64,000 bases of DNA from an uncultured Chloroflexia bacterium (GTDB taxonomy: Bacteria; Chloroflexota; Limnocylindria; Limnocylindrales; CSP1-4): positions 129,850 through 193,849 of the forward strand of contig CAVPEU010000026.1 of assembly GCA_963703575.1 (NCBI GenBank), written 5' to 3'. A program made the position numbers and the translations under genes. Position 1 is the first letter of the stretch, and each line of letters opens with the position of its first letter. Below the pieces are notes generated by a model. It did no database searches. It was given only the letters and a program-made list of their open reading frames with translations, and was not told the DNA's origin. Of this stretch, positions 10,342-38,559 are shown piece after piece.

Positions 10342-10345
10342 GGAA

Positions 10346-11743: not shown

Positions 11744-11864
11744 TGGTCCTGTTCCTCCGATGGGGCGCTGCGGGGAGGCGCTGGTCTCGTCGGCACCTAG
11801 TGTCGCGCATCCTGCGAGGGCGTGTCGCCGGGACGGGAGCATTGCGGAGCCGGCGGCGACGGCC

Positions 11865-11918
11865 CGCCCGGCCCTCCACCTGCGCCCGGCCCTCCACCTG
11901 CGCCCGGCCCTCCACCTG
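11865..11918. repeat. Tandem repeat, 3 x 18 bp (GCCCGGCCCTCCACCTGC), in the E1beta-E2 intergenic spacer
   Basis: Three perfect tandem copies plus a degenerate fourth. They produce the PAPGPP and GRAQVE repeats seen in spurious ORFs on both strands. Confidence 0.8.
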
Positions 11919-11949
11919 CGCCCGGCCCGCCGGCGCGGACCGGCGACGT

Positions 11950-14015: not shown

Positions 14016-14069
14016 CGCGTCCTCCGTGCGCCGCTCCGCGGCGACCGGCTGCGCCGGCCGCATCCACGG

Positions 14070-15512
14070 CTAGAAGTTGATCGACCGCCCGTCGATGGCC
14101 ATCGCGGTCTCGGCGAGGATCTCCGAGTAGGTGGGATGGGCGTGGGTGGCGGCGCCGATCTCCCACGGGGCTGCCTCGAGGGACAGCGCGAGCGAGGCCT
14201 CCGCGATGAGGTCCGTCGCGTGCGGGCCGATGAGGTGGACGCCCAGCGTCTCGTCGGTCTCGCGGTGGCCGATGATCTTGGCGAAGCCCTCGTACTCCCC
14301 GCCGATGATCGCCTTGCCCACCGCCTGGAACGGGACCTTGGCCGTCTTGACCGCCAGGCCGCGCTCCTCGCACTGCTGCTCGGTCAGGCCGACGGACGCG
14401 ATCTCGGGCCGGCAGTACGTGGCACGCGGCTGCTTGACGTAGTCCATCGGGTGGACGTCCGGGTCACCGGCGATCGTGTGGGCGGCGATGATCCCCTCGT
14501 GCGCGGCCGTGTGCGCGAGCATCAGCCCGCCGACGATGTCCCCGATGGCGTACAGGTGCGGCTCCTTCGTCCGCATCCGGCCATCCACCTTGACGATGCC
14601 CCGGTCGATCTCGGCCGAGGTCGTCTCGAGCCCCACATCCTCCACGTTGGTCGCCCGGCCGGTGGCGACGAGCAGCATCTCGGCGGAGATCTCCGTCGCG
14701 TCCTTGCCCTCCGGCCCCACCGTGATCCGGACGCCCGCGTCCCCGGCGACGACCGACGCGGCATCGAAGCGGGCGCTGGTCATGACCGTGATCCCGCGCC
14801 GGGCGAAGGTGCGCTCCAGTTCCCTGGATACCTCGCGGTCCTCGAGCGGCACGATCGCGGGCAGGTATTCGAGCAGCGTCACGGTCGCACCCAGGTCGTG
14901 GTACATGGACGCGAACTCCACCCCGACCGCGCCGGCGCCGATCACGATCACGCTGGCGGGCATCGAGTCCATCCGCAGGACGTCGTCAGAGGTCACGATC
15001 CGGCGCCCGTCCGGGACGATCCCGGGCAGTGACTTGACCCGCGAGCCGGTCGCGAGGATCACGTCCGTGGCGTTGAGGATCCGCTCTCCGCCGGCGCCCG
15101 GCGTGCCGTCCTCGCCCGCCTGGAGGACGCGGACCTTGGTCCCGCCCTCGAGCCGTCCCCGACCCTGGACCCAGGTCACGTCGTACTTGCGGACCAGGCC
15201 CTGGACACCCTTCCACATGCGGTTGACGACCTGGTCGCGGCGCTTCGCGATCTGCGCGTAGTCGACCTCCACCTCGCCGCCCAGCCGCAGGCCGAAGTCG
15301 CCCGCGTGGCGCAGCCGCTCGTTGAACGCGGCCGACTCGAGGAGCGCCTTGGTGGGGATGCAACCGCGATGCAGGCAGGTGCCGCCCAGCTTGTCCTCGT
15401 CCACGAGGGCCACCCGCAGGCCCAGCTGCGAGGCGCGGAACGCCGCCCCATAGCCGCCGGTGCCGGCGCCCAGGACGACGAGGTCGAAATCATTGGAGGA
15501 GCCGACGGCCAT
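14070..15512 (-). CDS. lpd: Dihydrolipoyl dehydrogenase (E3)
   Basis: FAD motif GAGTGGYGAA, redox-active disulfide GGTCLHRGCIPTK, and C-terminal HAHPTYSE. Confidence 0.9.
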   Translation of the reverse strand: MAVGSSNDFDLVVLGAGTGGYGAAFRASQLGLRVALVDEDKLGGTCLHRGCIPTKALLESAAFNERLRHAGDFGLRLGGEVEVDYAQIAKRRDQVVNRMWKGVQGLVRKYDVTWVQGRGRLEGGTKVRVLQAGEDGTPGAGGERILNATDVILATGSRVKSLPGIVPDGRRIVTSDDVLRMDSMPASVIVIGAGAVGVEFASMYHDLGATVTLLEYLPAIVPLEDREVSRELERTFARRGITVMTSARFDAASVVAGDAGVRITVGPEGKDATEISAEMLLVATGRATNVEDVGLETTSAEIDRGIVKVDGRMRTKEPHLYAIGDIVGGLMLAHTAAHEGIIAAHTIAGDPDVHPMDYVKQPRATYCRPEIASVGLTEQQCEERGLAVKTAKVPFQAVGKAIIGGEYEGFAKIIGHRETDETLGVHLIGPHATDLIAEASLALSLEAAPWEIGAATHAHPTYSEILAETAMAIDGRSINF

Positions 15513-24339: not shown

Positions 24340-25815
24340 CTAGGCCACGCCGGTGCCCACGGGCTCGGCCCCGGTCTCAGGCTCGGCCCTGGTCTCAGGC
24401 TCGGCCCCCGTCTCCGGCTCCGTCACCGCGGCCGGCTGCGGGCAACCCACCGGCTCCGGGTGCTGTGTCCTGGCCCACGCCTCGTCCGCGATCTTCTTCC
24501 AGCCGGCCGAGTAGGAGTCGATGCCGTCGCGGAGGGTCGTGAGCAGGGTCTCGGCGCCCGCGTGCGTGGGGTGGGCCCCCGTGGTCGCGACGACGTCCCG
24601 GATGACATGCGTCTCGTCGATGAGCATGCACGGCCGCAGGAGGTTCGGGCTGTACGGCTGGCGGGCCCGGATGTTGGCGAAGAACGGCGACCGAAGGATG
24701 TCGGCGAGGCTGGTGTCCTTGATGTTGTCGGTCGCGAAGTGGGTGAAGATGCAGGGTTCCACGTCGCCGCTCGAGGTCACGTGGAGGTACTGGCGGCCCG
24801 CGATGCACCCGCCGACGTAGGGAGCGTCGTTCCAGAAGTCCACGACGAGCAGCGGCTTCGTGCTCCGGATCCGCTGGGCGCCGTTGACACGCAGGTACTC
24901 GCGCTGCTCCGGCGTGGGCATCAGGTCGAGGTCCGGGTCGTCCCCGACCGGCATGTACATGAAGTGCCAGCCCCACAGGCAGCCGAGCTCGATGAGCCAG
25001 TCGGCGAACGCGTCGCTCGTGACGCCGAGACAGTTCTGCCGCGTGACCATGGTCGAGAACCCGAACGGCACGCCGGCGGCGCGCAGGGCAGCCATGCCGA
25101 GACCGGTCTTCCGGAAGGTGCCGCGTCCACGACGCACCTCGTGCTCGGCCGGGAAGCCGTCGACGCTGACGCTGACCAGCACGTTCCCCGCCCTGGCGAG
25201 GCGCTCGGCGACCGCGTCGGTCACCAGCGTCCCGTTGGTGAACACCATGAACGTCAGGTCCGGGTGGTGGTCGAACAGGTCCAGCATGCCGTGGGCCATC
25301 AGCGGCTCGCCGCCGAGCATGATCATGCCGAACGAGCCGAGATCCCTTGCCTCGTTGGCCAGGCGCTCGACGACCTCGAGCGGCAGGTCGCTCTTGCGGT
25401 CGTACTGCGATGCGTAGCAGCCCGTGCACTTGAGGTTGCAGCGCATCGTCGGGCTCGTCAGGACGACGAACGGCGTGGCGCCTCCCGTCGCGGCGAACCG
25501 CTCCTGCCGCGGCGGCCCGCTGCGCATCCAGGTGGCCATGTTGGTGATCAGCCGGGCGCGGACGTGCGGCGAGGTTGCCGCGTAGATGCGCCTCACCCAC
25601 TGCATCTCGTTCGGCGGCACGTCCTGCGCCGCCGCGTTCTCGAGGTACCGGCGCGCCGTCGCGACCATCTGCTTCTGGGCCGGGCGGGAGGCGACCATCT
25701 CTACGATCCGGGCGATCCGGGCGGCGTTCCGCTCCGGATCGGACATCACCAGGCTCGCAGCGGTACCGATCGCTCGTTCGGCAAAGCGCTGGCCAAGGCC
25801 ATCTCGAGTGGTCAT
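24340..25815 (-). CDS. Radical SAM/SPASM-domain enzyme with a ~120-aa N-terminal extension; function unassigned
   Basis: CNLKCTGCY rSAM cluster; C-terminal twitch/SPASM (GGCIAGRQYLHVTSSGDVEPCIF...RPCMLID). C-terminal PETGAE/PETRAE repeats. AGGAGAGAGG RBS. Confidence 0.85.
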   Translation of the reverse strand: MTTRDGLGQRFAERAIGTAASLVMSDPERNAARIARIVEMVASRPAQKQMVATARRYLENAAAQDVPPNEMQWVRRIYAATSPHVRARLITNMATWMRSGPPRQERFAATGGATPFVVLTSPTMRCNLKCTGCYASQYDRKSDLPLEVVERLANEARDLGSFGMIMLGGEPLMAHGMLDLFDHHPDLTFMVFTNGTLVTDAVAERLARAGNVLVSVSVDGFPAEHEVRRGRGTFRKTGLGMAALRAAGVPFGFSTMVTRQNCLGVTSDAFADWLIELGCLWGWHFMYMPVGDDPDLDLMPTPEQREYLRVNGAQRIRSTKPLLVVDFWNDAPYVGGCIAGRQYLHVTSSGDVEPCIFTHFATDNIKDTSLADILRSPFFANIRARQPYSPNLLRPCMLIDETHVIRDVVATTGAHPTHAGAETLLTTLRDGIDSYSAGWKKIADEAWARTQHPEPVGCPQPAAVTEPETGAEPETRAEPETGAEPVGTGVA

Positions 25816-26028
25816 CGGACGTCCTCTCTCCTGCGATCGTGGACAACATCGGCTTGTGCGTCTCGATCCCCTGGTCCGGGGGCCGCGGCGGAGCTTCGAG
25901 CCCCGTGACGACCCGGCGGCCCCGCGGGCTCGGCCGTCGATGGAACCCAGTACACGCCGCCGGCGGCGCGGCAGTGAGGGCTGTTGGGTCTCTATCCCTC
26001 GTGACATTCATCCCAATTGGAAGTGATC

Positions 26029-27264: not shown

Positions 27265-28758
27265 TCAGCGTGCCTGTTCTCCCGAACGGGAGGCCCTCGC
27301 ACCAGGCGCGACGGCTCCGGCCACCCGGCCGGGGAGGTCGACGGCCGGGGCGCGGGGGGCGATGCCGGCGAGGCGCTCCCCGACCGTCGCCGCGGCCGCC
27401 AGGCCCTGCGCGATGCAGTCCGGCAGGCCGACACCCCGGTACGAGGCACCGACGACGCCCACGGCCGGCCAGGCGGTCATCGCCTCGTCGATGGCGGCCA
27501 CGCGGCGCAGGTGGCCGACGGTGTAGCGCGGCATCGACGAGGCATGGCGAGCGAGCCGGGCGAGGACCGGCTCGCCCCGGATCCCGAGCGTCCGTTCCGC
27601 GTCCGCGCGGGCGGCGGCGACGAGCGCCTCGTCCGGAAGCGAGGTCCACGCCGCCTCGTCGCGGACGAAGATCCGGAGCAGGACGGCGCCCTCGGGTGCC
27701 CGGTCGGGCCACTTCTCCGACGTCCAGGTGCAGGCGGAGATCGCGCCGCCCTCCGTCGGGGGCACCAGGTAGCCGTGCCCGACAAGCGGATGCCCCACCG
27801 CGTCGCGTGGGTACGCGAGCGTCACGAGGATCGACGTCCCGTGCGGGATGCCATCGAGCGCGCGTGCGGCGCGCGGCGCCTCGTCATCGAGCAGGGCCGC
27901 CGCCACCGGGGCCGGCGCGGCGACCAGGACGGCGTCGAACCGGACGACGGACCCATCCGCGAACCGCGCCGCGACCCCGGAGCCGGCCCGCGCGAGCGTC
28001 CGCACGCCGAGGCCCAGCCGCACGTCCACGCCTGCCTCGCCCAGGGATGCCTCGAGCGCCGAGGTCAGCGTGTCCATGCCACCGCGCAGCGTCGCGAAGG
28101 CGCCCGGGGACGTCGCGCCGGCGGGGCGCGCAGCCGCCGCCCTGCGCGTCGCCCTCCCGTCGGACAGGCCGGCGAACAGGAGGCTCCGGTGCTCGCGCTC
28201 CGCGGTCCGCAGCTGGGGAACGACGGCATCGAGGGACAGCTCGTCGATCGGCGTGCCGTAGACGCCGCCCACGAGCGGGCCCGCCAGCCGGTCCACGAGC
28301 GGCGACCCGAGCCGCCGCCGCAGGAACGTCCCCACCGCGATGTCGTCGTCGGGGAGCATTCGCGGCCAGGCGATGTCCTTCGTCATCCGGATCTTCTCGG
28401 GCCACGAGAACAGCTTCGTCCTCGCGAACGGCATCGCCCTGGTCGGCAGGACGAGGCCCAGGCCCTCGGGCATGGGGACGAGCTCGCCGCGGTGGCGGAT
28501 GAACACCGCGCGCGGGTCCTTCGTCCCCACCAGCTCGCCGCCGAGCCCGACCTCGCGCGCCAGCGTCACGGCCGTCGGCCGGGCCGCGAGGAACGAGTCC
28601 GGGCCCCGCTCGACGACGAAGCCGTCGATACGCTCGGTCGAGACCTTGCCGCCGAGCCGTTCGCCGGCCTCCGCCAGCACGACCGGCACGCCCTGGCGGG
28701 CCAGTGCCCGCGCGGCCACCAGGCCCGTGACGCCGCCGCCGACGACGAGGACGCGCAT
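27265..28758 (-). CDS. hemY: Coproporphyrinogen III / protoporphyrinogen oxidase (HemY/CgoX family, FAD)
   Basis: MRVLVVGGGVTGLVAARALA dinucleotide fold; full PPO-family length with a ~40-aa C-terminal tail. Confidence 0.85.
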   Translation of the reverse strand: MRVLVVGGGVTGLVAARALARQGVPVVLAEAGERLGGKVSTERIDGFVVERGPDSFLAARPTAVTLAREVGLGGELVGTKDPRAVFIRHRGELVPMPEGLGLVLPTRAMPFARTKLFSWPEKIRMTKDIAWPRMLPDDDIAVGTFLRRRLGSPLVDRLAGPLVGGVYGTPIDELSLDAVVPQLRTAEREHRSLLFAGLSDGRATRRAAAARPAGATSPGAFATLRGGMDTLTSALEASLGEAGVDVRLGLGVRTLARAGSGVAARFADGSVVRFDAVLVAAPAPVAAALLDDEAPRAARALDGIPHGTSILVTLAYPRDAVGHPLVGHGYLVPPTEGGAISACTWTSEKWPDRAPEGAVLLRIFVRDEAAWTSLPDEALVAAARADAERTLGIRGEPVLARLARHASSMPRYTVGHLRRVAAIDEAMTAWPAVGVVGASYRGVGLPDCIAQGLAAAATVGERLAGIAPRAPAVDLPGRVAGAVAPGARASRSGEQAR

Positions 28759-28771: not shown

Positions 28772-30067
28772 TCAGGCGCCGGTGCCGGGGCCGGGCGCGG
28801 CCGGAGCCGGAGCGGGCGTCGAAGCGGCCGCCGTCGAGGCGGCCGCCGGCATGCCGTACGCCGGCACCGTCCCTGACGGCACGTACGGGCAGAGCGGGTC
28901 CGCCTCCAGCGGATCGCCCGTCCAGGCGTAGGCCCGCGCCCGCGAGCCCCCGCAGATCCGCGCGAACTCGCAGCGCCCGCAGCGGCCCTTGAACCCCTCG
29001 GGGTTTCGCAGGTCACGCATCACCGGGTGGTCGCGGTAGAGGTCCACGACCGACGCCTGGCGCACGTTCCCCAGCGGGATCGGCAGGAAGCCGGACGGGT
29101 TCACCGTCCCGTCGTGGGCCACGAACACGATGCCGTTGCCGTCGCGGATCCCGAACCCCCGCCCCACCGACGTCTTCGCGATCGCGTCGCTTTCCATCCC
29201 GGCCGCCTGCATCTGGCGGATCACGAGCCGGCGGTAGTGGGTCGCCTCCGTCGTCTTGACCTGGAACGGGGCGGTCCGTGACAGGTCGTACAGCCAGGCG
29301 TTGAGCTTCTCGGACTCGCCGGGCGTGACCTCGCGCAGCGCGCTCCCACGGCCCACGCTGATCAGCATGAACAGGCTCCAGCGCATGACGTCCATGCCCA
29401 GGAGCAGCTCGTAGATCGCGGGCAGGTCGCTCAGCGTCTCATCGGTGACCAGGGTGTTGACCTGGATCGGCAGGCCGGCGGCGCGGGCCCAGCGGGCGGC
29501 CTGGAGCGTCTTGTCGAACGTGCCCGGGACCATGCGGAAGCCGTCGTGGCGAGCCGCGTCCGACCCGTCGAGCGAGAGCGAGATGTTCTGGACGCCCGCC
29601 TCGTGGAGGCTCGCCAGCACGTCCGGCGTGAGCAGCGGCGTGGCGGCCGGCGCCAGCGAGACGCCGATGCCGCGGGCGGTCGCGGCGCGCACCAGGTCGT
29701 GGAGGTCCGGGCGGTTGAGCGGGTCGCCGCCGGTGAGCACGACGTGCGGGTACGGCCGCCCGAAGCCGGTGATGTCGTCCAGGAGCCGGTAACCCTCCTC
29801 GGTCGTCAGCTCCAGCGGGTCGCGCTCCGCGATGGCGGAGGCGCGGCAGTGGCGGCAGGCGAGCCCGCAGGCGAGCGTCGTCTCCCAGTACACGAGCATC
29901 GGCGCGCGGTCGTACACGTAGCCCTCGGCACGGACGGCACCCACGCCCGTGATGCCGGACGGGTGCCCGCCCCGAGGACCGCCGGGATGGCCGGCGGGAT
30001 GGCCGGCGGAATTGTCGGCGGGCCGGCCCGGGCGGCCGGCGGGGACGGGCTCCATGGACGTCGTCAT
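28772..30067 (-). CDS. Radical SAM NirJ/AhbC/AhbD-family enzyme (AhbD-like putative coproheme decarboxylase)
   Basis: YWETTLACGLACRHC rSAM motif and C-terminal CGRCEFARICGG...CPYVP auxiliary cluster. AAGGAGA RBS. N-terminal His/Pro/Gly-rich extension. Confidence 0.75.
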   Translation of the reverse strand: MTTSMEPVPAGRPGRPADNSAGHPAGHPGGPRGGHPSGITGVGAVRAEGYVYDRAPMLVYWETTLACGLACRHCRASAIAERDPLELTTEEGYRLLDDITGFGRPYPHVVLTGGDPLNRPDLHDLVRAATARGIGVSLAPAATPLLTPDVLASLHEAGVQNISLSLDGSDAARHDGFRMVPGTFDKTLQAARWARAAGLPIQVNTLVTDETLSDLPAIYELLLGMDVMRWSLFMLISVGRGSALREVTPGESEKLNAWLYDLSRTAPFQVKTTEATHYRRLVIRQMQAAGMESDAIAKTSVGRGFGIRDGNGIVFVAHDGTVNPSGFLPIPLGNVRQASVVDLYRDHPVMRDLRNPEGFKGRCGRCEFARICGGSRARAYAWTGDPLEADPLCPYVPSGTVPAYGMPAAASTAAASTPAPAPAAPGPGTGA

Positions 30068-30087
30068 CTCGGATCTCCTTCGGCCGC

Positions 30088-31015
30088 TCAGGCGACCGCT
30101 GTGGGGCGCAGCGCGTCGGCCGCGATGTCGGCCAGGCCGGCGATGAACGTCGGGTCGGTGTTCATCGAGCGTGCGCGGACGAGGTGGACGCCCAACCGAT
30201 CGGCCACCGCCTGCGCCTCGATGTCGATGTCGTAGAGGACCTCGAGGTGGTCGGTGACGAAGCCGACGGGCCGGATCACCAGCTCCGGGACGCCTTCGCC
30301 GGCCAGCCGCCGGATCTCGTCCAGGATGTCCGGGCCCAGCCACGGCTCGCCGGTCCGGCCGGCGCTCTGGAACGCGAACTCGTACCGCCCCAGGCCCAGC
30401 CGCTCCGCCACCAGCCGCGAGGTCGCGGCCAGCTCGTCCGGATACGGGTCGCCTTCCGCGAGCACGCGGGCGGGGAGGCTGTGGGCGGTGAACATCACGC
30501 GGACCCGTGCCGGATCCTCGAACCGGCCGAGCGCCTCCCGGACCGTCTGGGCCAGCGCCTCGATGAACCGGGGCTGGGCGTGCCACGAGTCCACGAACTC
30601 GACCGCGGGCGCCCCCTCCCCGAGATCCGCCAGCGCCGCGTCCACGGCCCGGCGATACCCGACGCCGTTCGAGGACCGGTGCGGCGCCATCGCGATCGCG
30701 ACGAACCGCTCCACCCCGTCGGTGGCCATGCCCTTGACGACGTCGCCGATCCGCGGCTCGATGTGCCGCATCCCGGCGTACACCGCTATCGAGCGTGCCG
30801 CGCCCCGTCAGCTCCGCCTCCAGCGCTGCCCGCTGCGCGTCCATGATCCGCGACAGCGGCGAGCCGCCGCCGATCGCCCGGTAGCGGCCCACCAGCTCCT
30901 CCAGCAGGTGGGGCGGCGGCGGGCTGCCGCGCCGGATGTCCGTGTAGTAGGCCTCGACCTGGTCCAGCCGGTCGGGGCTGCCGTAGGCCATCAGCAGGAC
31001 GGCGTCGCGGGTCAT
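30088..31015 (-). CDS. hemH: Ferrochelatase (coproporphyrin ferrochelatase CpfC/HemH); frame interrupted near 30800-30815
   Basis: N-terminus MTRDAVLLMAYGSPDRLDQVEAYYTDIRRG...AELTG is in one frame; the rest (VYAGMRHIEP...HLEVLYDIDIEA...) is in the +1 frame. ATGA overlap with the hemE stop. Confidence 0.8.
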
Positions 31016-32094
31016 CGGGAGGCCCCGGAATCGTGGACGAGGTCGACGAGGCGGGCGAGGTGGTCGGGGTTGGTGCCCGGCAGCACGCCGTGCCCGAGGT
31101 TGAACACGTGGCCGGGGCGGCCGCCGTTCTGGCCGAGGATCCAGCGGGCGCTCTCCACGACGCCCTCCCAGGGTCCGAGCAGGAGCGTCGGGTCGAGGTT
31201 GCCCTGCACGCCGCGATCCCCGACCAGCCGCCGCCCATCGGCAAGGGAGATCCGCCAGTCGAGCCCGATCACGTCGCCACCGGCCGAGGCCTGGAGGCGG
31301 AGCAGGCCGGCCGTGCCGGTGCCGAAGTGGATCGACGGGACCCCGAGCTTCCCGACGGCGTCGAACAGGCGCCGGTACCAGGGCAGGAGGCGGCGCTCGT
31401 AATCCAGCGGGCTCAGGCCGCCCACCCAGGAGTCGAAGACCTGGACGGCCTCGGCGCCGGCGGCCACCTGCGCTGCGAGGTAGCGGATCGTCGCCTCGGT
31501 GAGGACGTGGAGCAGCGCCGCCCACGTCTCGGGATCCGCGTGCATCAGGCGCCGGGTCCGGAGGAAGTCGCGCGACGGACCGCCCTCGACCAGGTAGCAG
31601 GCGAGGGTGAACGGCGCCCCGGCGAAGCCGATCAGCGGCACCGGCGACTCGCGCCGGATCAGCCGGATGGCCTCCAGCAGCGGGGCCACCGCGAACGACG
31701 GCTCGAACTCGCGCAGGGCGCGCACGTCGGCGAGGGTCCGGATCGGGTGCTCGATGACCGGCCCCACGCCCTCGCGGATCTCGAACTCGACGCCCAGCCC
31801 GGCGAGCGGCGTGGTGATGTCGGCGAACAGGATCGCCGCGTCCACGCCCAGGCGGCGGACCGGCTGGAGGGTGACCTCGGCGCACAGCCCGGGGTCGCGG
31901 GTGATCTCGAGCAGGGTCGCCCGCTCTCGGACGGCGCGGTACTCCGGCAGGGCGCGACCCGCCTGGCGCATGAACCAGACCGGCGTGGTGTCCACGGGCA
32001 CCCCGCGGGCGGCGCGCAGGAAGCGCGTCTCGGGGCGCGGGGCGGGGCTGCCGGCCGGGGCAGCCGGGGCGGCGGCGCGCGTCTCGGCCGTCAT
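31012..32094 (-). CDS. hemE: Uroporphyrinogen decarboxylase
   Basis: PVWFMRQAGRALPEY signature. ATGA overlap with the hemL stop. Confidence 0.9.
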   Translation of the reverse strand: MTAETRAAAPAAPAGSPAPRPETRFLRAARGVPVDTTPVWFMRQAGRALPEYRAVRERATLLEITRDPGLCAEVTLQPVRRLGVDAAILFADITTPLAGLGVEFEIREGVGPVIEHPIRTLADVRALREFEPSFAVAPLLEAIRLIRRESPVPLIGFAGAPFTLACYLVEGGPSRDFLRTRRLMHADPETWAALLHVLTEATIRYLAAQVAAGAEAVQVFDSWVGGLSPLDYERRLLPWYRRLFDAVGKLGVPSIHFGTGTAGLLRLQASAGGDVIGLDWRISLADGRRLVGDRGVQGNLDPTLLLGPWEGVVESARWILGQNGGRPGHVFNLGHGVLPGTNPDHLARLVDLVHDSGASR

Positions 32095-33407
32095 GCCGCG
32101 AACGCCCGTCGCACCGCGTCCAGGGTCGCCCTGACCTCCGCGTCGCCGTGGGCGACGCCGATGAACCAGGCCTCGAACTGGGACGGCGGCAGCAGTACGC
32201 CTTCGTCCAGCATGCCGCCGAAGAAGCGCGCGTACGCCTCGCGGTCCGCGGTCAGCGCCTGCGCGCCGTCCCGCGGCGGGGAGGCGAGGAAGAACACCGT
32301 GAGCAGCGAGCCGACCCGCGAGATCGCGACCTCGCGGCCGGCCGCCGCGGCCGCCTGGCGCAGCCCCGCCTCCAGGGTGGCGCCGGTGTGCTCGAGCACC
32401 TCGTACACGTACGGCGTGAGCAGGTCCAGCGTGGCCACCCCGGCCGCCATCGACAGCGGGTGGCCGCTGAGGGTCCCCGCCTGGTAGACGCCGCCCTCCG
32501 GGGCGACGTGCGCCATCAGGTCCGCACGCCCGCCGTAGGCTCCGATCGGCAGCCCGCCGCCGATGATCTTGCCCAGCGTCGTGAGGTCCGGCACGATCCC
32601 GTACCGCTCCTGCGCCCCGCCGCGCGCGACGCGGAACCCGGTGATGACCTCGTCGAAGATCAGCAGCGCGCCGTTCGCCTCCGTCTGCTCGCGCAGCGCG
32701 TCCAGGAAGCCCGGCTCCGGGGCGATGACGCCCACGTTGGCGCCCACCGGCTCCACGATGATCGCCGCGACCTGGCCCGGATGGGCGCGGAAGGCCTCCG
32801 CGACCGCGTCGACATCGTTGTACGGGATCACGATCGTGTCCCGCGCCGTGCCCGCCGTCACGCCGGCCGAGCCCGGCATGGCCAGCGTCGCGAGGCCGGA
32901 CCCCGCCTCGACGAGGAGGCTGTCGCCGTGCCCGTGGTACCCGCCGGCGAACTTGACGACCAGGTCCCGGCCGGTGGCGCCGCGGGCCAGCCGGATCGCG
33001 CTCATCACGGCCTCGGTGCCGGACGAGGTGAACCGCATCCGTTCGATGGACGGCATGGCCGCGCGGATGCGCTCGCCCAGCTCCACCTCCCGGGGACCGG
33101 TCGCGCCCAGCGCGAACCCGTCGAGGGCCGCCTCCCGGACGGCGTTGACCACCGCCGGGGCGGCATGGCCCAGGATCGCCGGCCCCCAGGCGCCGATGTA
33201 GTCCAGGTACCAGCGGCCGTCGGCGTCCCGGACGCGGGGCCCCTCGCCCCGGTCCAGCACGAGCGGCGGCCGCCCGACCGAGCGGAAGGCCCGCACGGGG
33301 CTGTTGACGCCGCCCGGGAACAGGTCCGCGGCCCGGGCGCGAAGGTCGTCCTGGCGGGATGCGGCCGGCGTCGCTCCCGCGTCCGGGTCGCCGATGAACA
33401 TCGTCAT
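32091..33407 (-). CDS. hemL: Glutamate-1-semialdehyde 2,1-aminomutase
   Basis: PLP-dependent aminotransferase class III (FPGGVNSPVRAF; lysine in TLGKIIGGG). Confidence 0.9.
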   Translation of the reverse strand: MTMFIGDPDAGATPAASRQDDLRARAADLFPGGVNSPVRAFRSVGRPPLVLDRGEGPRVRDADGRWYLDYIGAWGPAILGHAAPAVVNAVREAALDGFALGATGPREVELGERIRAAMPSIERMRFTSSGTEAVMSAIRLARGATGRDLVVKFAGGYHGHGDSLLVEAGSGLATLAMPGSAGVTAGTARDTIVIPYNDVDAVAEAFRAHPGQVAAIIVEPVGANVGVIAPEPGFLDALREQTEANGALLIFDEVITGFRVARGGAQERYGIVPDLTTLGKIIGGGLPIGAYGGRADLMAHVAPEGGVYQAGTLSGHPLSMAAGVATLDLLTPYVYEVLEHTGATLEAGLRQAAAAAGREVAISRVGSLLTVFFLASPPRDGAQALTADREAYARFFGGMLDEGVLLPPSQFEAWFIGVAHGDAEVRATLDAVRRAFAA

Positions 33408-33408
33408 G

Positions 33409-34434
33409 TCAGCCCTCCCGGGCCCAGGCCGCGAGGTCCGCCGCGGCATAGGTGATCACGAACCCCGCCCCCGCGCGCAGGATCGCCGTGGTGGTCTCGG
33501 TCAGGGCGCGACGGCGGTCGATCCAGCCGTTCCGGGCGGCCGCCTCGATGGTCGCGTACTCGCCGCTCACCTGGTAGCCGCCGATCGGGACGTCGAACCG
33601 CCGCCGCGCCGCGGCCAGGATGTCCAGCGACGGCAGCGCCGGCTTGACCAGCAGCATGTCGGCGCCCTCCGAGAGGTCGATCTCCATCTCGCGCATCGAC
33701 TCGCGCCCGTTGGCCGGGTCCATCTGGTAGCCGCGCCGGTCGCCGAAGGCGGGCGTGGAGCCCGCGGCCTCGCGGAACGGGCCGTAGAACGCGGACGCGG
33801 TCTTGGCCGCGTAGGCGAGGATCGCGGTGTCGTGGTGGCCGTCCATGTCCAGCCCATGCCGGATCGCGGCGACCTGGCCGTCCATCATGCCGCTGGGCGC
33901 CACGATGTCGGCGCCGGCCTCGGCCTGGGAGACCGCGGTGCGCGCGTACAGCTCGATGGTGGCGTCGTTGTCCACCCGGCCGTCGGCGAGGAGCGGGCCG
34001 CAGTGGCCGTGGTCCGTGTATTCGCACAGGCAGGTGTCCGCGATGAGCGCGAGATCGAGGTCGGCGTCCCGCAGGCGACGGAGCGCCTCCTGGACGATGC
34101 CGTCCGCAGCCCAGCCGCCGGTGCCGATGGCATCCTTCTCCGCCGGCAGGCCGAACAGGATGAGTCCCCCGATCCCCAGCTCCTCCAGCGCCCGGGCGTC
34201 CTTGAGCGCCTCGTCCGGCGTCACCCGCTCCACGCCGGGCATCGAGCCGACCGGCTCGCGGCGACCCCGCCCGGGGGTCACGAACAGGGGCGCCACGAGC
34301 TGCCGCGGATGGATCCGCGTCTCGCGCACGAACGCCCGGAGCGTCTCGGTCCGGCGCGTCCGGCGAAGCCGGTGGGCGGCGGGTACCTCCGGGACCGGGT
34401 GTGCGGCGGCCGTCAGGTCGGTGACAAGGCTCAT
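33409..34434 (-). CDS. hemB: Porphobilinogen synthase (ALA dehydratase)
   Basis: ALAD active-site region DTCLCEYTDHGHCG and GADIVAPSGMMDG. GGAGGA RBS. Confidence 0.9.
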   Translation of the reverse strand: MSLVTDLTAAAHPVPEVPAAHRLRRTRRTETLRAFVRETRIHPRQLVAPLFVTPGRGRREPVGSMPGVERVTPDEALKDARALEELGIGGLILFGLPAEKDAIGTGGWAADGIVQEALRRLRDADLDLALIADTCLCEYTDHGHCGPLLADGRVDNDATIELYARTAVSQAEAGADIVAPSGMMDGQVAAIRHGLDMDGHHDTAILAYAAKTASAFYGPFREAAGSTPAFGDRRGYQMDPANGRESMREMEIDLSEGADMLLVKPALPSLDILAAARRRFDVPIGGYQVSGEYATIEAAARNGWIDRRRALTETTTAILRAGAGFVITYAAADLAAWAREG

Positions 34435-36119
34435 CTGGGTCCTCCGGGAACTGGGACACGCCGGACGCCGAGGGATGCCGCGACGAACGCGGCAAGGTCC
34501 GGCGCGGCCGGCGACGGCGCGCTCAGGACGGTGGCGAAGCCGAGCGACCGGGCGGCGGTCGCGGTGGGTGCGCCGATGGCCACGACGGGAGTCCTGAGCA
34601 GGCGGTCGTGAACTGCGTCATCCGCCGCCAGCGCGAGGAACCCCCGGGCGGTCGAGCCGCTGGTCAGCACGAGCGCGTCCAGGGGCCCGTCGTCAAGCGC
34701 GGCGGCGAGCAGGGCGCGGGACGCGGCCGGCCCCTCGGCGGTGTGGTAGGCGACCACGTCCTCGACGACCGCGCCGCGGGCGCGCAGCGCATCGGGCAAG
34801 GCCGGCTCGGCGATATCGGCACGCGGCAGCAGGACCCGGTCACCGGGGAGCACGGGCAGCTCGCGCCCCATCGCGTCAGCCGTCGAGGACGACGGCACGA
34901 ACGAGACCGGGACACCAGCAGCCGCGAGGACGCCCGCGGTCGCCTCGCCGACGGCGCCCCACAGGGTGGCCGACGCCCGGGCCCCGGTGCGCTCGAAGGC
35001 GGCCAGGGTCGCACGGGCGGCGTTGCCGCTCGTGACCACGACCCAGTCCCCGGGCCGGACGGTCGCGGCCACACGGTCCAGGGGTCCGCCCACCCCGGCG
35101 GTCCGGACCTCGATGGCGGGGACGTTGGCGGCGTCGATGCCCGCCACATCCAGCGCATCGAGCAGCGCGCCCGCCTGGTCGTCCGGCCGCCCGACGAGCA
35201 CCCGTGGTCGCTGCCGCAGCGTGACGACTCTCGCGGCCAGCCGCTCCGCCAGCGCGGCGGACCGGGTGACCGGTGCGCTCCCGCGGACCCGCACGACCGG
35301 CGTGGCGACGATGGGTGCGCCCTCGGCCGGGGCCCATGTCCGCTCGGCGGAGGCGGCCAGCTCCAGCACGCCGTCGCGCACCTCCCCGATCGCCCCGATC
35401 GGTGACCGGCAGCCGCCCCCGGTCGCGTTGAGCAGTGTCCGTTCGGCCTGCACGGCCGTCCGGGTCGCGGGATCGTCCAGCAGGCCCACCGCCGCGACCG
35501 CCTCCGCGTCGGCCTTCCGCACCTGGATCGCGAGCGAGCCCTGCCCGGGCGCCGACGCGACCGCCGACGCCGGCAGGATGTCGTCGATCCGGTCCGCGCG
35601 GCCCAGGCGGGTGAGCCCGGCCACCGCCAGCACGAGCGCGTCGCTGTCCCCGCGGTCCAGCTTCGCCAGCCGCGTGTCCACGTTGCCGTGCAGCGGGTGC
35701 AGCTCGAGGTCCGGGCGGACCGCCCGCAGGAACGCCGTGCGGCGGGGGCTGTCGGTACCGACCCGCGCGCCGGCCGGGAGCGTCGCCAGCGTCGTCCCGC
35801 GGACCCGGCACACCAGCGCGTCCCGCGGGTCCTCCCGCGGCGGGTACGCGGCGATCACGAGGTCCGGGTGCTCGTCGGTGGGGACGTCCTTCGCGCTGTG
35901 CACGGCCACGTCCACGGACCCATCGAGCAGCGCGCCCACGATCCGGCCGACGAATGCGCCCTCACCCCAGGCGGTGTCCACCGGCCGGTCGTCACCCTCG
36001 GTGCGGATGATTGCGATCTCCGCGGGCACGCCGTGCTCGGCGAGGCGAGCGGCGACCCAGTTCGCCTGGACGAGCGCGAGCGCGCTCCCCCGGGTGCCGA
36101 TGCGGAGGGGACGGGTCAC
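34431..36119 (-). CDS. hemCD: Fused hydroxymethylbilane synthase / uroporphyrinogen-III synthase
   Basis: N-terminal HemC (LRIGTRGSALALVQANWV...GGGCRSP); C-terminal HemD domain (PRVLVGRPDDQAGALLDALD...). GTG start after GAGGTG. Confidence 0.85.
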   Translation of the reverse strand: MTRPLRIGTRGSALALVQANWVAARLAEHGVPAEIAIIRTEGDDRPVDTAWGEGAFVGRIVGALLDGSVDVAVHSAKDVPTDEHPDLVIAAYPPREDPRDALVCRVRGTTLATLPAGARVGTDSPRRTAFLRAVRPDLELHPLHGNVDTRLAKLDRGDSDALVLAVAGLTRLGRADRIDDILPASAVASAPGQGSLAIQVRKADAEAVAAVGLLDDPATRTAVQAERTLLNATGGGCRSPIGAIGEVRDGVLELAASAERTWAPAEGAPIVATPVVRVRGSAPVTRSAALAERLAARVVTLRQRPRVLVGRPDDQAGALLDALDVAGIDAANVPAIEVRTAGVGGPLDRVAATVRPGDWVVVTSGNAARATLAAFERTGARASATLWGAVGEATAGVLAAAGVPVSFVPSSSTADAMGRELPVLPGDRVLLPRADIAEPALPDALRARGAVVEDVVAYHTAEGPAASRALLAAALDDGPLDALVLTSGSTARGFLALAADDAVHDRLLRTPVVAIGAPTATAARSLGFATVLSAPSPAAPDLAAFVAASLGVRRVPVPGGPR

Positions 36120-36135
36120 GGGACGCACCTCGGGC

Positions 36136-37353
36136 TCAGAGGGAGAACAGGGTCCGCGCGGCCCGCTCGAGGTCGCCGGAGGCGTCCTCACGGAGCGTCG
36201 CGAGCGGCGCATGGAGCAGGCCGGAGACCAGCCGGTGGCTCATCTGCTCCACGAGCTCGCGCTCGTGGTCCGCCAGGTCCAGGCGCCGGAACAGGCGCTC
36301 CAGCTCCTCGGCCCGCTGGGCCTCGGCGCGATCGCTGAGGGCCTGGATCGCGGGCACGCCGACCCGGGCGGAGACCCACGCGACGAAGGCCGCCTCGGCC
36401 TCGTCCAGCGAGCGGTTGAAGCGCGCCCGGAGGCGGCGACGGAGCTCGTCCTGCGGGCTGCGAGCGAGGTCGTCCACGGACGTGTACCGGCCGCCCAGGG
36501 CGTCGCGCAGATCCTCGCCCAGGGACGGCGGCGAGCTGAGGTCCACCACCGGCATCGAACCGGCGACGAGGTCGGCGCGGGCCTGCGGCGACAGCGGCCA
36601 CCGGGCGCCGATCGCGATCACCACCGCGTCGACGTCGGGCAATGGCGCCCCGGGGCCGAAGGCGACCGGCTCGCCGTTGGCGTCGAAGGCCAGGGCGGCG
36701 GCGCGATCGCTGCTGCGGTTGGCGACCAGGACGTGGCAGCCTCGCCGGGACGCGGCGAGCGCGGCGAGGCGCGCCATGCGTCCCGCGCCCACGACCAGGA
36801 CGCGCCGCCCGAGCAACGGCCCGCTGGCCGTGGCCGCCCGATCGAGCGCGACGTCGGCGAGCGACTGCGGCGGGCCCTCGCGCCATGACCGGGTCTCGCG
36901 GCCCAGGTGGAGCGCGATCTGGAACAGGCGCTCCAGGACCGGGTGCAGGCCGACGGCGAGGTCGCTCGGCGAGCCGATCTGCTCCGGGCAACGGGCGGCC
37001 GCGGGCAGGTGACGATCCGCCAGGCACTCCCGAAGCTGGTGCAGGATTTGGTCCTCGCCCACGACCACGGAGTCGAGGCCGGCCGCGACCGAGAACAGGT
37101 GCCGAGCGGCCTCGACGCCCTGGAGCCGGCGGCCGCCCGGCGGCAGGTTGGGCAGGACGAGGGGTCCCCGGCCCGGGAGCGGCTCGTCCACCGCGAACAG
37201 CTCGACGCGGTGGCAGGTGCGGATCAGGATCGCCCGCGGGTCGCCGGCGAGGGCGGCGGCCGCGTCCGCGAACGCCTCCCGTGCCTCGCTCGGGACGTGG
37301 CGGGCGTGGGTGACGAGCGCAACCAGGACGAGGTCGGCGCGAGGATCGGTCAC
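36136..37353 (-). CDS. hemA: Glutamyl-tRNA reductase
   Basis: HemA N-terminal domain, NADP-binding VLVVGAGRMARLAALA, and dimerisation tail. Confidence 0.9.
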   Translation of the reverse strand: MTDPRADLVLVALVTHARHVPSEAREAFADAAAALAGDPRAILIRTCHRVELFAVDEPLPGRGPLVLPNLPPGGRRLQGVEAARHLFSVAAGLDSVVVGEDQILHQLRECLADRHLPAAARCPEQIGSPSDLAVGLHPVLERLFQIALHLGRETRSWREGPPQSLADVALDRAATASGPLLGRRVLVVGAGRMARLAALAASRRGCHVLVANRSSDRAAALAFDANGEPVAFGPGAPLPDVDAVVIAIGARWPLSPQARADLVAGSMPVVDLSSPPSLGEDLRDALGGRYTSVDDLARSPQDELRRRLRARFNRSLDEAEAAFVAWVSARVGVPAIQALSDRAEAQRAEELERLFRRLDLADHERELVEQMSHRLVSGLLHAPLATLREDASGDLERAARTLFSL

Positions 37354-38099
37354 GAGAGGCTCCCGGAGGTGGGCGAAGTGGACGGGGTCGGCGAGGCGGA
37401 CGCGGGCGGCGAGGCGGACGGGGTCGGCGAGGCGGGCCGGCGGCGGCGCGAGGGAGCCAGGGCCGCGGCCTCCCAGCCACGGAGCGTCGCCAGGAGCAGG
37501 TCGTCGAGGGCCGCCGTGGCATCGGCGAGCAGCGTAGAACAGGCGGCCGCGTCGAACTCGCGGCGCCGGGCGAGCGCACCCAGCTCCGCGAGGAACGGGC
37601 GGCGGTAGCGGAGGAACAGGTCCGCGGTCATCGATGCCCCGATCCCCTCGCGGGCCGCGACGCGCCCATACTCGGTGCAGGCGGCTTCCGCGTCGAGCAG
37701 GTGGCGGTGGTGCTCGTCCCCGGTCGAGTCGAGCGCCGCGACCAGCGCGGCGACGATGGCCCGGCCGTGGTGGCGGAATTGCTCCCGCCGCTCGTCATCC
37801 AGCTCGGCGATCCAGGGAATGTGCCCGGTGTCCACGTCCGTCGCTCGCCGGTAGCCCCTGGCCATCCGGCCCGGCGTCTCGCCCAGGTCGGCAAGGGACG
37901 GGCGACCCGTGGGATGGGCGGGCAGCAGGGCATCGAGACCCGCCCGGGAGAACCGGCGGTGGCCGCCGGGGGTGACGAAGGTGCGGACCATCCCCGTGTC
38001 GGCCCAGCGGCGGATGGTGGACGGCGAGACGCCGAGCACGCGGCAGGCCTCGGTGAGCGTCACCCAACCGGGGTCCGCGGCCGTGGTGCGGGAACGCAT
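37350..38099 (-). CDS. MerR/excisionase-type HTH regulator with a C-terminal domain of unknown function
   Basis: HTH VTLTEACRVLGVSPSTIRRWADTGMV. Its stop overlaps the hemA start. Start ambiguous (TTG at 38129, ATG at 38120 or 38099). Pro/Ser/Ala-rich C-terminal tail. Confidence 0.6.
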   Translation of the reverse strand: MRSRTTAADPGWVTLTEACRVLGVSPSTIRRWADTGMVRTFVTPGGHRRFSRAGLDALLPAHPTGRPSLADLGETPGRMARGYRRATDVDTGHIPWIAELDDERREQFRHHGRAIVAALVAALDSTGDEHHRHLLDAEAACTEYGRVAAREGIGASMTADLFLRYRRPFLAELGALARRREFDAAACSTLLADATAALDDLLLATLRGWEAAALAPSRRRRPASPTPSASPPASASPTPSTSPTSGSLS

Positions 38100-38129
38100 G
38101 ACCGCCGATGAACCTCCCATATCTCCCAA

Positions 38130-38143: not shown

Positions 38144-38319
38144 CCCGGCATGGTAGTCCCCAATCGACCCCGGCCCGACAGGGCCGTCCGGCCCCGGTTG
38201 CGGTGCGAACGGCCCGGTTCGGAGGGCGGTTCCACCCTTCCCCGGCGCCCGGCCCCGGACGCCTACTTCCTTCCGTGAACGTAGCGTCCCGCCGTCCGCC
38301 TGTCGCCCCGGAGCCCGGT

Positions 38320-38559
38320 GTGCCCCTGTCCCGTGTCCCGGTGGGCCGGCGTCGCAGGGTGCTGTCGGTCGAGGGCCCCGCCCGTGCCGAGCTGGAGCGC
38401 GAAGGCGTGCTCCCCGGGACCACCGTCGTCGTGACGACGCGGACGCCGTTCGGCGGCCCGCTCGTGGTCGAGGTCGGCCGGACCCGGCTCGCCATCTCGA
38501 CCGACGTGGGGGCGCAGGTCACAACCGTCCCCCTGGTGTCGAAGGGCGACCCGGGATGA
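38320..38559 (+). CDS. feoA: FeoA-domain protein
   Basis: SH3-like FeoA sequence (LSRVPVGRRRRVLSVEG...GVLPGTTVVV...GGPLVVEVGRTRLAIS). Its TGA overlaps the feoB ATG. Confidence 0.7.
   Translation: MPLSRVPVGRRRRVLSVEGPARAELEREGVLPGTTVVVTTRTPFGGPLVVEVGRTRLAISTDVGAQVTTVPLVSKGDPG

What the first reader, a model, noticed from the sequence alone, without database searches (positions are those of the whole stretch)
28772..30067. AhbD-like radical SAM enzyme sits in the ChdC/HemQ slot of a coproporphyrin-dependent heme operon
The minus-strand operon reads hemA, hemCD, hemB, hemL, hemE, hemH(cpfC), then this gene, then hemY(cgoX). In the CPD pathway the step after ferrochelatase is coproheme decarboxylation, normally done by ChdC/HemQ. 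No chdC is in the window. Instead there is a 431-aa radical SAM protein of the NirJ/AhbC/AhbD family. It has the rSAM motif CGLACRHC in a YWETTLAC context and a C-terminal auxiliary cluster CGRCEFARICGG...CPYVP. AhbD catalyses exactly this reaction (coproheme to heme b) without O2 in the siroheme-dependent pathway. The gene is translationally tight with its neighbours and has a strong AAGGAGA RBS. This suggests a hybrid pathway that keeps an O2-dependent CgoX but has an O2-independent terminal decarboxylase. The protein also carries an unusual ~45-aa His/Pro/Gly-rich N-terminal extension (PAGHPAGHPGGPRGGHPSG) that could bind metal or heme.
Basis: partly seen in the sequence, partly recalled or inferred. 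Interest (0 to 1): 0.75.

Follow-up and report, generated by a model that had tools for sequence, protein, structure and literature searches.

The report
AhbD-like radical SAM gene in heme operon
This gene encodes a radical SAM enzyme, closely related to the anaerobic heme synthase AhbD, inside a heme-synthesis operon of a soil or freshwater Chloroflexota bacterium. This arrangement is widespread and already predicted in the literature, and most relatives also keep the usual oxygen-linked enzyme ChdC, so the gene more likely backs ChdC up than replaces it.

Summary
Window 28772..30067 (-) encodes a 431-aa radical SAM protein between hemH and hemY in a MerR-hemA-hemCD-hemB-hemL-hemE-hemH-X-hemY operon. 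No chdC is present in the 64 kb.

The protein is a trusted-score member of NCBIfam TIGR04053, the "BA_1875 family", which has no functional name. AhbD (TIGR04545) is the clear second-best model, and NirJ and AhbC score far lower. It has only seven Cys: the radical SAM cluster plus one auxiliary cluster (AuxII). Glu/Ser/Ser replace three of the four AuxI ligands. This matches the AuxI-less AhbD class described by Fix et al. 2023, with ligand spacing identical to M. barkeri AhbD.

Family-wide, the commonest neighbours are heme genes. One member is fused to ferrochelatase, whereas full-SPASM AhbDs are fused to siroheme decarboxylase.

The most likely function is O2-independent coproheme decarboxylase of the coproporphyrin pathway. 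That idea is already published (Dailey 2015; reviews 2022-2026) but has not been tested biochemically.

The "replaces ChdC" reading is weak. The gene keeps the same position in relatives that also carry chdC, and every relative with wider information has chdC. The result is a new member of a known, predicted kind, of modest interest.

The parts
28772..30067 (-). Radical SAM/SPASM-type gene, 431 aa, TIGR04053 family (AhbD-like, AuxI-less)
   Evidence: TIGR04053 467.2 bits, cut-off 395; AhbD 303.6. AF2 model with pLDDT 86 and a SPASM/Twitch fold.
30074..30080 (-). AAGGAGA ribosome-binding site, 6 nt upstream of the ATG
   Evidence: Sequence.
29948..30067 (-). N-terminal ~40-aa His/Pro/Gly (GHP) repeat extension, predicted disordered
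   Evidence: Conserved in 81/96 close homologs. pLDDT<50 for residues 1-40. It extends about 48 residues beyond the M. barkeri AhbD numbering in PMC10452713.
29846..29869 (-). CX3CX2C radical SAM cluster motif (C67, C71, C74)
   Evidence: Conserved in 120/127 family representatives.
28889..28981 (-). C-terminal CX2CX5C(X2S)X17C motif: the four AuxII ligands (C363, C366, C372, C393), with Ser375 in place of the AuxI ligand
   Evidence: Spacing is identical to M. barkeri AhbD C312/C315/C321/C324/C342 (PMC10452713).
29093..29248 (-). Positions of the missing AuxI ligands: E274, I307, S325 (with S375 above)
   Evidence: These match the 'one Glu, two Ser' signature of AuxI-less AhbDs.
30088..31015 (-). 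hemH/cpfC ferrochelatase, split by a 1-base frameshift near 30793-30797
   Evidence: Pfam Ferrochelatase 214.6 bits on the C-terminal part. tblastn places residues 1-73 and 75-316 in two frames. Sequence. The repaired protein hits NF009095/TIGR00109.
27265..28758 (-). hemY (CgoX/PgoX-family FAD oxidase), 497 aa
   Evidence: Pfam Amino_oxidase 191.7 bits. TIGR00562 251.9 bits.
31012..32094 (-). hemE, uroporphyrinogen decarboxylase
   Evidence: Pfam URO-D 405.6 bits.
32091..33449 (-). hemL, glutamate-1-semialdehyde aminomutase
   Evidence: Pfam Aminotran_3. 83% identity to L001 hemL.
33409..34434 (-). hemB, porphobilinogen synthase
   Evidence: Pfam ALAD 436 bits.
34431..36212 (-). hemC-hemD fusion (start codon uncertain)
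   Evidence: 70% identity to the L001 gene carrying Porphobil_deam + HEM4.
36136..37353 (-). hemA, glutamyl-tRNA reductase
   Evidence: 70% identity to the L001 GlutR gene.
37350..38129 (-). MerR/BldC-type HTH regulator heading the operon
   Evidence: NCBIfam HTH_BldC/excisionase domain. Conserved at the same position in L001-L004, L013 and L087.

Best explanation
The gene encodes a TIGR04053-family radical SAM enzyme. This family is the AuxI-less sister form of the heme synthase AhbD. [quoted passage not shown]

Inferred mechanism, by analogy with characterised AhbD: the CX3CX2C [4Fe-4S] cluster cleaves SAM to a 5'-deoxyadenosyl radical. This radical abstracts H from the propionates on rings A and B of coproheme made by the adjacent ferrochelatase. 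The propionates are then decarboxylated stepwise to vinyl groups, giving heme b. The single C-terminal [4Fe-4S] cluster (AuxII) relays the leftover electron.

In this bacterial group the enzyme normally coexists with ChdC. It is therefore best read as the low-oxygen or anaerobic alternative, like hemN beside hemF, not as a replacement.

Shown here: family membership, cluster ligands, operon context, family-wide linkage to heme genes, and coexistence with chdC in relatives. Inferred: the substrate, the chemistry, and the division of labour by oxygen.
For: 1. Family. TIGR04053 scores 467 bits, above its cut-off of 395. AhbD is second at 303.6 bits; NirJ2, NirJ and AhbC score 180, 156 and 151.

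2. Cluster ligands. The cluster-ligand positions are colinear with M. barkeri AhbD at a constant offset of 51: E274/I307/S325/C363/C366/C372/S375/C393 against C223/C256/C274/C312/C315/C321/C324/C342. The Glu/Ser/Ser replacement is the signature of AhbDs from non-methanogenic archaea (PMC10452713).

3. Phylogeny. Among 127 family representatives at 50% identity, the full-SPASM (CCCC) type forms one clade. That clade scores best on the AhbD model (405-497 bits, below the 500 cut-off), and the E/S/S type is TIGR04053.

4. Fusions. The E/S/S type is fused to ferrochelatase in P0160. This fusion was seen in two independent samples and is followed by hemY. It is fused in frame to HemY in P0225/L084. 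The CCCC type is fused to siroheme decarboxylase AhbA/B in five representatives.

5. Neighbourhood. In 81 genome loci from at least 7 phyla, the commonest neighbours within 4 kb are hemE, hemY, chdC, hemA, hemB, hemH and hemL. In five loci chdC lies immediately upstream of the radical SAM gene.

6. No siroheme route. No AhbA/B homolog is present in the window or in any locus.

7. Precedent. In Haloferax volcanii, deleting ahbD impairs only anaerobic growth and deleting the ChdC homolog impairs aerobic growth; heme rescues both (PMC5746218).

8. Literature. An AhbD-like enzyme has been proposed for anaerobic CPD heme synthesis (PMC10114771; PMC10548856; PMC13564367).
Against: - No member of TIGR04053 has been assayed, as far as the searchable literature shows.
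- The protein is below the AhbD trusted cut-off.
- In M. barkeri AhbD, perturbing AuxI stalls the reaction at the monovinyl intermediate. An enzyme with no AuxI must therefore manage the second decarboxylation differently.
- CgoX in the same operon is nominally O2-dependent. S. aureus CgoX is reported to be needed anaerobically too (PMC6620371, title and abstract).
- About two thirds of the loci, mostly Acidobacteriota, show no heme neighbours.
Confidence: 0.68

Rival explanations
1. One reading: in this genome ChdC has been lost, and the radical SAM enzyme is the only coproheme decarboxylase. This would give a hybrid pathway with an O2-using CgoX and an O2-independent last step.
For: - No chdC lies in the 64 kb, nor within +-10 kb in the four closest operons L001-L004.
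hemB and hemL overlap, LLM and MutY are adjacent, and feoAB occupies the divergent position.
- No ChdC was seen on contigs of length 255122, 2234053 or 3624741 among the clusters inspected.
Against: - Every relative with wider information has chdC. L013 (radical SAM protein 84% identical) has it 5.6 kb away. L087 has it divergent from the operon. L005 has it inside the operon. In the P0050 MAG it is on the same 107-kb contig. One NCBI MAG carries both proteins, MHB8960098 and MHB8961040.
- The chdC-hemH2 module changes position between genomes, so its absence from one window says little.
- Only about 2% of a 3-4 Mb genome was seen.
- The contig-length check covers only some clusters.
Confidence: 0.25
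2. The enzyme acts on a different tetrapyrrole or at a different step. One option is O2-independent decarboxylation of coproporphyrinogen III or coproporphyrin III before iron insertion, a CgdH-like role. Another is a further modification of heme.
For: - The family has its own NCBIfam model with no assigned function.
- It lacks AuxI, which matters for the second decarboxylation in M. barkeri AhbD.
- It is also fused to HemY and often sits next to hemY alone in Acidobacteriota.
- Relatives in the same superfamily (AhbC, NirJ) act on other side chains.
Against: - The nearest characterised family is AhbD by a wide margin.
- AuxI-less proteins are accepted AhbDs in archaea, and ahbD has an anaerobic heme phenotype in a haloarchaeon.
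- The fusion to ferrochelatase, which makes coproheme, and the tight pairing with chdC, which uses the same substrate, point to coproheme.
Confidence: 0.12
3. It is an unrelated SPASM peptide maturase or other cofactor maturase that happens to lie in a hem operon.
For: Weak full-length similarity to PqqE, the mycofactocin maturase and sactipeptide maturases. Its closest solved folds are PqqE, SkfB, SuiB and anSME.
Against: - Those scores are 3-5 times lower than the AhbD score.
- No precursor-peptide gene is present; the gaps to the neighbouring genes are 20 and 13 nt.
- The position inside hem operons is conserved across phyla.
- AuxI, the cluster that often binds peptide substrates, is absent.
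Confidence: 0.02

Closest known systems
AhbD, AdoMet-dependent heme synthase (NCBIfam TIGR04545; EC 1.3.98.6) of the siroheme-dependent pathway (D. vulgaris, M. barkeri)
   Same: Same superfamily and the best-scoring characterised family. Same CX3CX2C motif and C-terminal CX2CX5C...C motif, with identical spacing of all ligand positions. The predicted substrate and product are the same.
   Different: It scores below the trusted cut-off (303.6 < 500). All four AuxI cysteines are missing (E/I/S/S). It is linked to hemH, hemY and chdC rather than to ahbA/B/C. It carries a ~48-aa His/Pro/Gly N-terminal extension.
AuxI-less AhbDs of non-methanogenic archaea (Aeropyrum, Sulfolobus, Pyrobaculum, Halorubrum; Fix et al. 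2023, PMC10452713), and H. volcanii AhbD (PMC5746218)
   Same: Same Glu + two Ser replacement of the AuxI ligands, with AuxII retained. In Haloferax, AhbD coexists with a ChdC homolog and is needed only anaerobically. This is the arrangement proposed here.
   Different: Those organisms make coproheme from siroheme; here it would come from CgoX and CpfC. No archaeal sequence was compared directly, so whether they fall inside TIGR04053 was not tested.
TIGR04053 'BA_1875 family' radical SAM/SPASM protein (NCBIfam equivalog with no functional name). IMG labels many members 'AdoMet-dependent heme synthase'.
   Same: A trusted-score member. Close homologs carry exactly these names.
   Different: Nothing differs at family level. 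The clade-specific GHP repeat and the Ala/Pro-rich C-terminal tail are extras.
ChdC/HemQ, the H2O2-dependent coproheme decarboxylase (Pfam PF06778)
   Same: Same predicted reaction and the same pathway position. The two genes are often adjacent.
   Different: Unrelated fold and chemistry. ChdC is absent from this window but present in relatives.
HemN/CgdH beside HemF/CgdC in the protoporphyrin pathway
   Same: The same logic: a radical SAM, O2-independent propionate-to-vinyl decarboxylase paired with an O2-linked isofunctional enzyme.
   Different: A different radical SAM family with a different substrate (coproporphyrinogen III), and CgdH binds two SAM molecules (PMC10114771).

Membership tests
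TIGR04053 (BA_1875 family radical SAM/SPASM) | Whole-protein score above NCBIfam's curated cut-off (395 bits), matched end to end | tested here: met
   467.2 bits; residues 52-397 match profile positions 3-366 of 366.
AhbD (TIGR04545, heme b synthase) | Whole-protein score above the curated cut-off (500 bits) | tested here: not met
   303.6 bits, second-best family. Full-SPASM representatives score 405-497 bits.
AhbD (as defined in the literature) | N-terminal CX3CX2C motif and C-terminal CX2CX5CX20-38C motif | tested here: met
   C67/C71/C74 and C363/C366/C372/C393, with X20 between the last two. Motif definition from PMC10452713.
AhbD, full-SPASM subclass (methanogens, sulfate reducers) | Four further Cys ligating the AuxI cluster (M. 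barkeri C223, C256, C274, C324) | tested here: not met
   E274, I307, S325 and S375 occupy those positions.
AhbD, AuxI-less subclass (non-methanogenic archaea) | Conserved Glu, Ser and Ser at the C223, C274 and C324 positions | tested here: met
   E274, S325 and S375 at a constant offset of 51. Not aligned directly against an archaeal sequence.
AhbD (siroheme-dependent pathway) | Genomic association with ahbA/ahbB/ahbC | tested here: not met
   No AhbA/B homolog in the window or in 81 loci. The second radical SAM ORF in the window scores only 63 bits on AhbC.
AhbD / coproheme decarboxylase (functional class) | SAM-dependent conversion of coproheme to heme b through a monovinyl intermediate | not testable with these tools
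   Requires an anaerobic enzyme assay.
CPD-pathway 'AhbD-like' enzyme (Dailey 2015; Layer 2022) | AhbD homolog colocalised with hemY/hemH(/hemQ) in an organism without other AHB genes | tested here: met
   The hemH-X-hemY arrangement is present here and in L001-L007, L013, L059 and L087. hem genes are adjacent in 28 of 81 loci. Definition from PMC10548856.
NirJ / AhbC | Score above the family cut-offs (515-650 bits) | tested here: not met
   NirJ 155.6, NirJ1 144.3, NirJ2 180.4, AhbC 151.4 bits.
SPASM/Twitch radical SAM fold | Partial TIM barrel plus a C-terminal cluster-binding domain | tested here: met
   AF2 model with pLDDT 86.4. Top Foldseek hits are PqqE, SkfB, SuiB, BlsE and anSME. Pfam Radical_SAM 77.8 bits; SPASM 18 bits, below its cut-off.

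The most novel reading that the evidence does not exclude
A Limnocylindria subclade (the window and L001-L004) has lost ChdC altogether. It relies on an AuxI-less radical SAM enzyme with a His-rich tail as its only coproheme decarboxylase, although it keeps CgoX and lives in oxic soil or water. If so, the terminal step of the CPD pathway can be permanently taken over by the O2-independent enzyme. The GHP repeat might then serve in metal or heme handling.
Probability: 0.22. Interest if true: 0.5.

Novelty: new member of a known kind. Interest (0 to 1): 0.3.

Why it matters
How Gram-positive-type (CPD) bacteria finish heme synthesis without O2 or H2O2 has been predicted but not shown biochemically. 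A 2024 paper still calls the oxygen-independent enzyme 'yet unknown' (PMC10965808).

This analysis sharpens the candidate. It is the NCBIfam family TIGR04053, found in at least 594 species genomes. It is distinguished from siroheme-pathway AhbD by loss of the AuxI cluster, by a fusion to ferrochelatase, and by pairing with chdC.

That gives experimenters a defined target and a defined structural question: how does the enzyme complete two decarboxylations with only one auxiliary cluster? The particular gene in this window adds little beyond another example.

Tried and rejected
- An exact-sequence look-up of the window protein and of P0001 to identify the source contig found nothing. The whole genome could therefore not be searched for chdC.
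A first attempt with a 63-sequence alignment failed for lack of a conserved stretch; a 13-sequence alignment worked.
- I tried to link ChdC to the window's genome through contig lengths of cluster members and through two ChdC homology searches. This found co-occurrence in relatives but nothing for contigs of 255122, 2234053 or 3624741 bp. It is weak negative evidence only.
- The AFDB fold library was unavailable.
- The PDB holds no AhbD, NirJ or TIGR04053 structure.
- Dailey 2015 (PNAS) and Dailey 2017 (MMBR) are not in the held library, so they are cited only through papers that quote them.
- The HemH::radical SAM 'fusion' P0125 was set aside, because its contig also has a split hemE and may contain errors.
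- I considered and rejected the idea that the nearby second radical SAM ORF (24340..26007) is AhbC or NirJ. It scores only 63-101 bits on those models and has no counterpart in the related loci.
Full report
**1. The observation**

The window is 74% G+C. On the minus strand, an ATG at 30067 opens a 431-codon frame that ends at the TGA at 28774-28772. An AAGGAGA site lies 6 nt upstream of the ATG. The hemH stop is 20 nt upstream of the ATG, and the hemY ATG is 13 nt downstream of the stop.

Pfam and tblastn confirm the gene order:
- MerR-like regulator (37350..38129)
- hemA
- hemC-hemD fusion
- hemB
- hemL
- hemE
- hemH
- the target gene
- hemY (27265..28758)

No chdC lies anywhere in the 64 kb. 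tblastn with a ChdC gave a best E of 1.2. An HMM built from two ChdC types found nothing in any frame at E<=1, yet it recovered ChdC in 12 related loci.

The protein has exactly seven cysteines: C67/C71/C74 and C363/C366/C372/C393.

Two corrections are needed. First, in this sequence hemH is broken by one extra base near 30793-30797: residues 1-73 and 75-316 are in different frames. Second, the closest genomes are Limnocylindria-type Chloroflexota MAGs, not Actinobacteria.

**2. What the protein is**

NCBIfam places it in TIGR04053 at 467 bits (cut-off 395). This is an equivalog family named only 'TIGR04053 family radical SAM/SPASM domain-containing protein'. The scores on related models are:
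- AhbD (TIGR04545): 303.6 bits, second-best, below its 500-bit cut-off
- NirJ2: 180 bits
- NirJ: 156 bits
- AhbC: 151 bits

Public annotations of close homologs read 'TIGR04053 family...', 'radical SAM protein, BA_1875 family' or 'AdoMet-dependent heme synthase'.

I aligned 127 full-length representatives from a 50%-identity library; that library holds 899 representatives at E<=1e-30. The alignment shows two classes:
- 23 representatives have four extra cysteines (CCCC or DCCC).
- Most of the others, the query included, have Glu or Ala, a hydrophobic residue, Ser and Ser at those columns.

The query's positions are E274/I307/S325/C363/C366/C372/S375/C393. They match M. barkeri AhbD C223/C256/C274/C312/C315/C321/C324/C342 at a constant offset of 51. 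The M. barkeri numbers are from Fix et al. 2023 (PMC10452713). That paper reports that AhbDs of non-methanogenic archaea lack the AuxI cluster and carry a conserved Glu and two Ser at exactly these positions. The window protein therefore has the radical SAM cluster plus AuxII only.

In a neighbour-joining tree the 23 full-SPASM sequences form one clade. Those tested score best on the AhbD model, and the E/S/S sequences score best on TIGR04053.

An AlphaFold model is confident (pLDDT 86.4) for residues ~45-405. It matches the SPASM/Twitch enzymes PqqE, SkfB, SuiB, BlsE and anSME. Residues 1-40 and 410-431 are predicted disordered. No AhbD-family structure is in the PDB.

**3. What the family is linked to**

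These come from Chloroflexota, Actinomycetota, Acidobacteriota, Armatimonadota, Methylomirabilota, Gemmatimonadota, Myxococcota and Bacillota.

In the 81 loci fetched, 28 have heme genes next to the radical SAM gene. An unsupervised clustering of neighbours within 4 kb gave these as the most frequent families:
- hemE (15 loci)
- hemY (14)
- chdC (11)
- hemA (11)
- hemB (10)
- hemH (10)
- hemL (9)

Next came a c-type cytochrome in Acidobacteriota. No non-heme theme appears.

Domain fusions separate the two classes cleanly:
- P0160 is TIGR04053 (447 bits) fused to a ferrochelatase (273 bits). It was found in two independent metagenomes and is followed by hemY.
- P0225/L084 is an in-frame radical SAM-HemY fusion.
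- Five full-SPASM representatives are fused to siroheme decarboxylase AhbA/B domains.

No AhbA/B homolog occurs in the window or in any of the 81 loci. TIGR04053 is therefore the coproporphyrin-branch counterpart of the siroheme-branch AhbD.

**4. Relation to ChdC**

The related loci say otherwise.
- The operon MerR-hemA-hemCD-hemB-hemL-hemE-hemH-X-hemY is conserved in L001-L004, L013 and L087. X always lies between hemH and hemY.
- L005 is a Limnocylindrales MAG whose X is 70% identical. It has a Firmicute-like chdC between hemB and hemL of the same operon. In the window hemB and hemL overlap.
- L087 (X 68% identical) has an actinobacterial-like chdC and a second ferrochelatase transcribed divergently from the MerR gene. 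The window has feoA-feoB at that position.
- L013 (X 84% identical) has the same chdC-hemH2 pair 5.6 kb downstream, next to the LLM oxidoreductase. In the window, L001 and L003 the LLM and MutY genes are adjacent.
- In L086 the pair lies elsewhere.
- In the P0050 MAG, ChdC and X are on one 107-kb contig. One NCBI MAG holds both proteins, MHB8960098 and MHB8961040.
- In Propionibacteriales the order is hemE-X-hemY-chdC-hemH.
- In Anaerolineae, Chthonomonas and others, chdC lies immediately upstream of X.
- Both ChdC types are abundant in Limnocylindrales.

The two decarboxylases therefore normally coexist, and X has its own fixed position. For the window's own genome I could not decide. The source contig could not be retrieved. 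No ChdC on a contig of matching length turned up among the clusters I could inspect. I put the chance that chdC is truly absent from this genome at about one in four.

**5. Mechanism**

The steps below are by analogy with characterised AhbD (PMC10114771; PMC10452713).
1. The reduced radical SAM cluster cleaves SAM.
2. The 5'-deoxyadenosyl radical abstracts a hydrogen from a propionate side chain of coproheme.
3. The substrate radical fragments to vinyl and CO2.
4. The remaining electron leaves through the substrate iron and an auxiliary cluster.
5. The cycle repeats on the second propionate.

Here coproheme would come from CgoX (hemY) and CpfC (hemH) in the same operon.

The Haloferax volcanii genetics give a working precedent for the split by oxygen: the ChdC homolog is needed aerobically and AhbD anaerobically, and heme rescues both mutants (PMC5746218). 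S. aureus CgoX is reported to be needed anaerobically too (PMC6620371, listed). An O2-independent last step next to CgoX is therefore not contradictory.

One open point remains. In M. barkeri AhbD, loss of AuxI stalls the reaction at the monovinyl intermediate, while loss of AuxII does not affect activity. This enzyme has only AuxII.

**6. Novelty**

The concept is in the literature.
[quoted passage not shown] I found no biochemical test of such an enzyme. A 2024 paper still treats the oxygen-independent enzyme as unknown (PMC10965808).

The gene is therefore a new member of a known, predicted kind. What this analysis adds:
- the identification of that kind with TIGR04053
- its AuxI-less signature
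- the class-specific fusions
- the coexistence pattern with two ChdC types
- the clade-specific GHP repeat

**7. The N-terminal extension**

Residues 1-~40 contain three GHP units. Close homologs have 2-5 such units (81 of 96 have at least two), followed by a conserved ITGVGAVRAEGYVY segment. The region is predicted disordered. It is about 48 residues longer than the M. barkeri AhbD N-terminus, judged from the motif numbering. Its function is unknown, and metal or heme binding is only a guess.

**8. Verdict**

Interest is 0.3.

Noticed in passing
window 30793-30797 (-), inside hemH 30088..31015: The ferrochelatase gene is split by one extra base: 'ggcacgCtcgatagcg' against L001 and P0125. Residues 1-73 and 75-316 are in different frames. 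It is either an assembly error or a pseudogene. It is not in a homopolymer run.
   Followed up: partly
window ~26750-26780 (-), gene 26029..~27250: A UPF0104/LPG_synthase_TM membrane-protein gene also changes frame, at a GGGG run ('...LVLFRGWG|IRTDAAG...'). This is a second frameshift within 5 kb. It suggests long-read homopolymer errors; the closest genomes are MFD long-read MAGs.
   Followed up: partly
window 24340..26007 (-): A second radical SAM/SPASM ORF (about 491-555 aa, motif CNLKCTGC) lies two genes downstream of hemY. Its best family hits are weak: NirJ2 101 bits, AhbD 94 bits. With the membrane protein it forms an insertion between hemY and the LLM gene that is absent from L001-L004 and L013. 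Function unknown.
   Followed up: partly
L013 16629..18481; L086 10001..11874; L087 10001..11811: In relatives, ChdC is always followed by a second, actinobacterial-type ferrochelatase; the L013 copy has a Cys-rich C-terminus. The radical SAM gene sits next to a different ferrochelatase that scores best on the NF009095 (PRK12435) ferrochelatase subfamily. Each decarboxylase therefore seems to be paired with its own ferrochelatase, as two parallel terminal modules. The chdC-hemH2 module occupies three different positions in three genomes.
   Followed up: partly
window 38203..40547 (+): feoA-feoB (ferrous iron uptake) is transcribed divergently from the MerR-like regulator that heads the hem operon. 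The arrangement is conserved in L001-L003 and L013. In L087 the chdC-hemH2 pair replaces it at that position.
   Followed up: no
window 29948..30067 (-) and homologs P0003-P0134: The (G-H-P) repeat number varies from 2 to 5 among close homologs. The window protein also has a 34-aa Ala/Pro-rich C-terminal tail, whereas several close homologs end soon after the conserved 'PAYGM'.
   Followed up: partly
P0143, P0147, P0171 (family representatives): Other TIGR04053-type proteins carry C-terminal fusions: Pyridox_ox_2 (a flavin/heme-binding split barrel), an FeS_assembly_P domain and a GNAT domain. Their meaning was not explored.
   Followed up: no
window 8157..15512 (-): By eye, from the translations: an adenosine-deaminase-like gene, lipoyl synthase, and a 2-oxoacid dehydrogenase E2-E1beta-E1alpha-E3 cluster. 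These look ordinary and were not run against any library.
   Followed up: no
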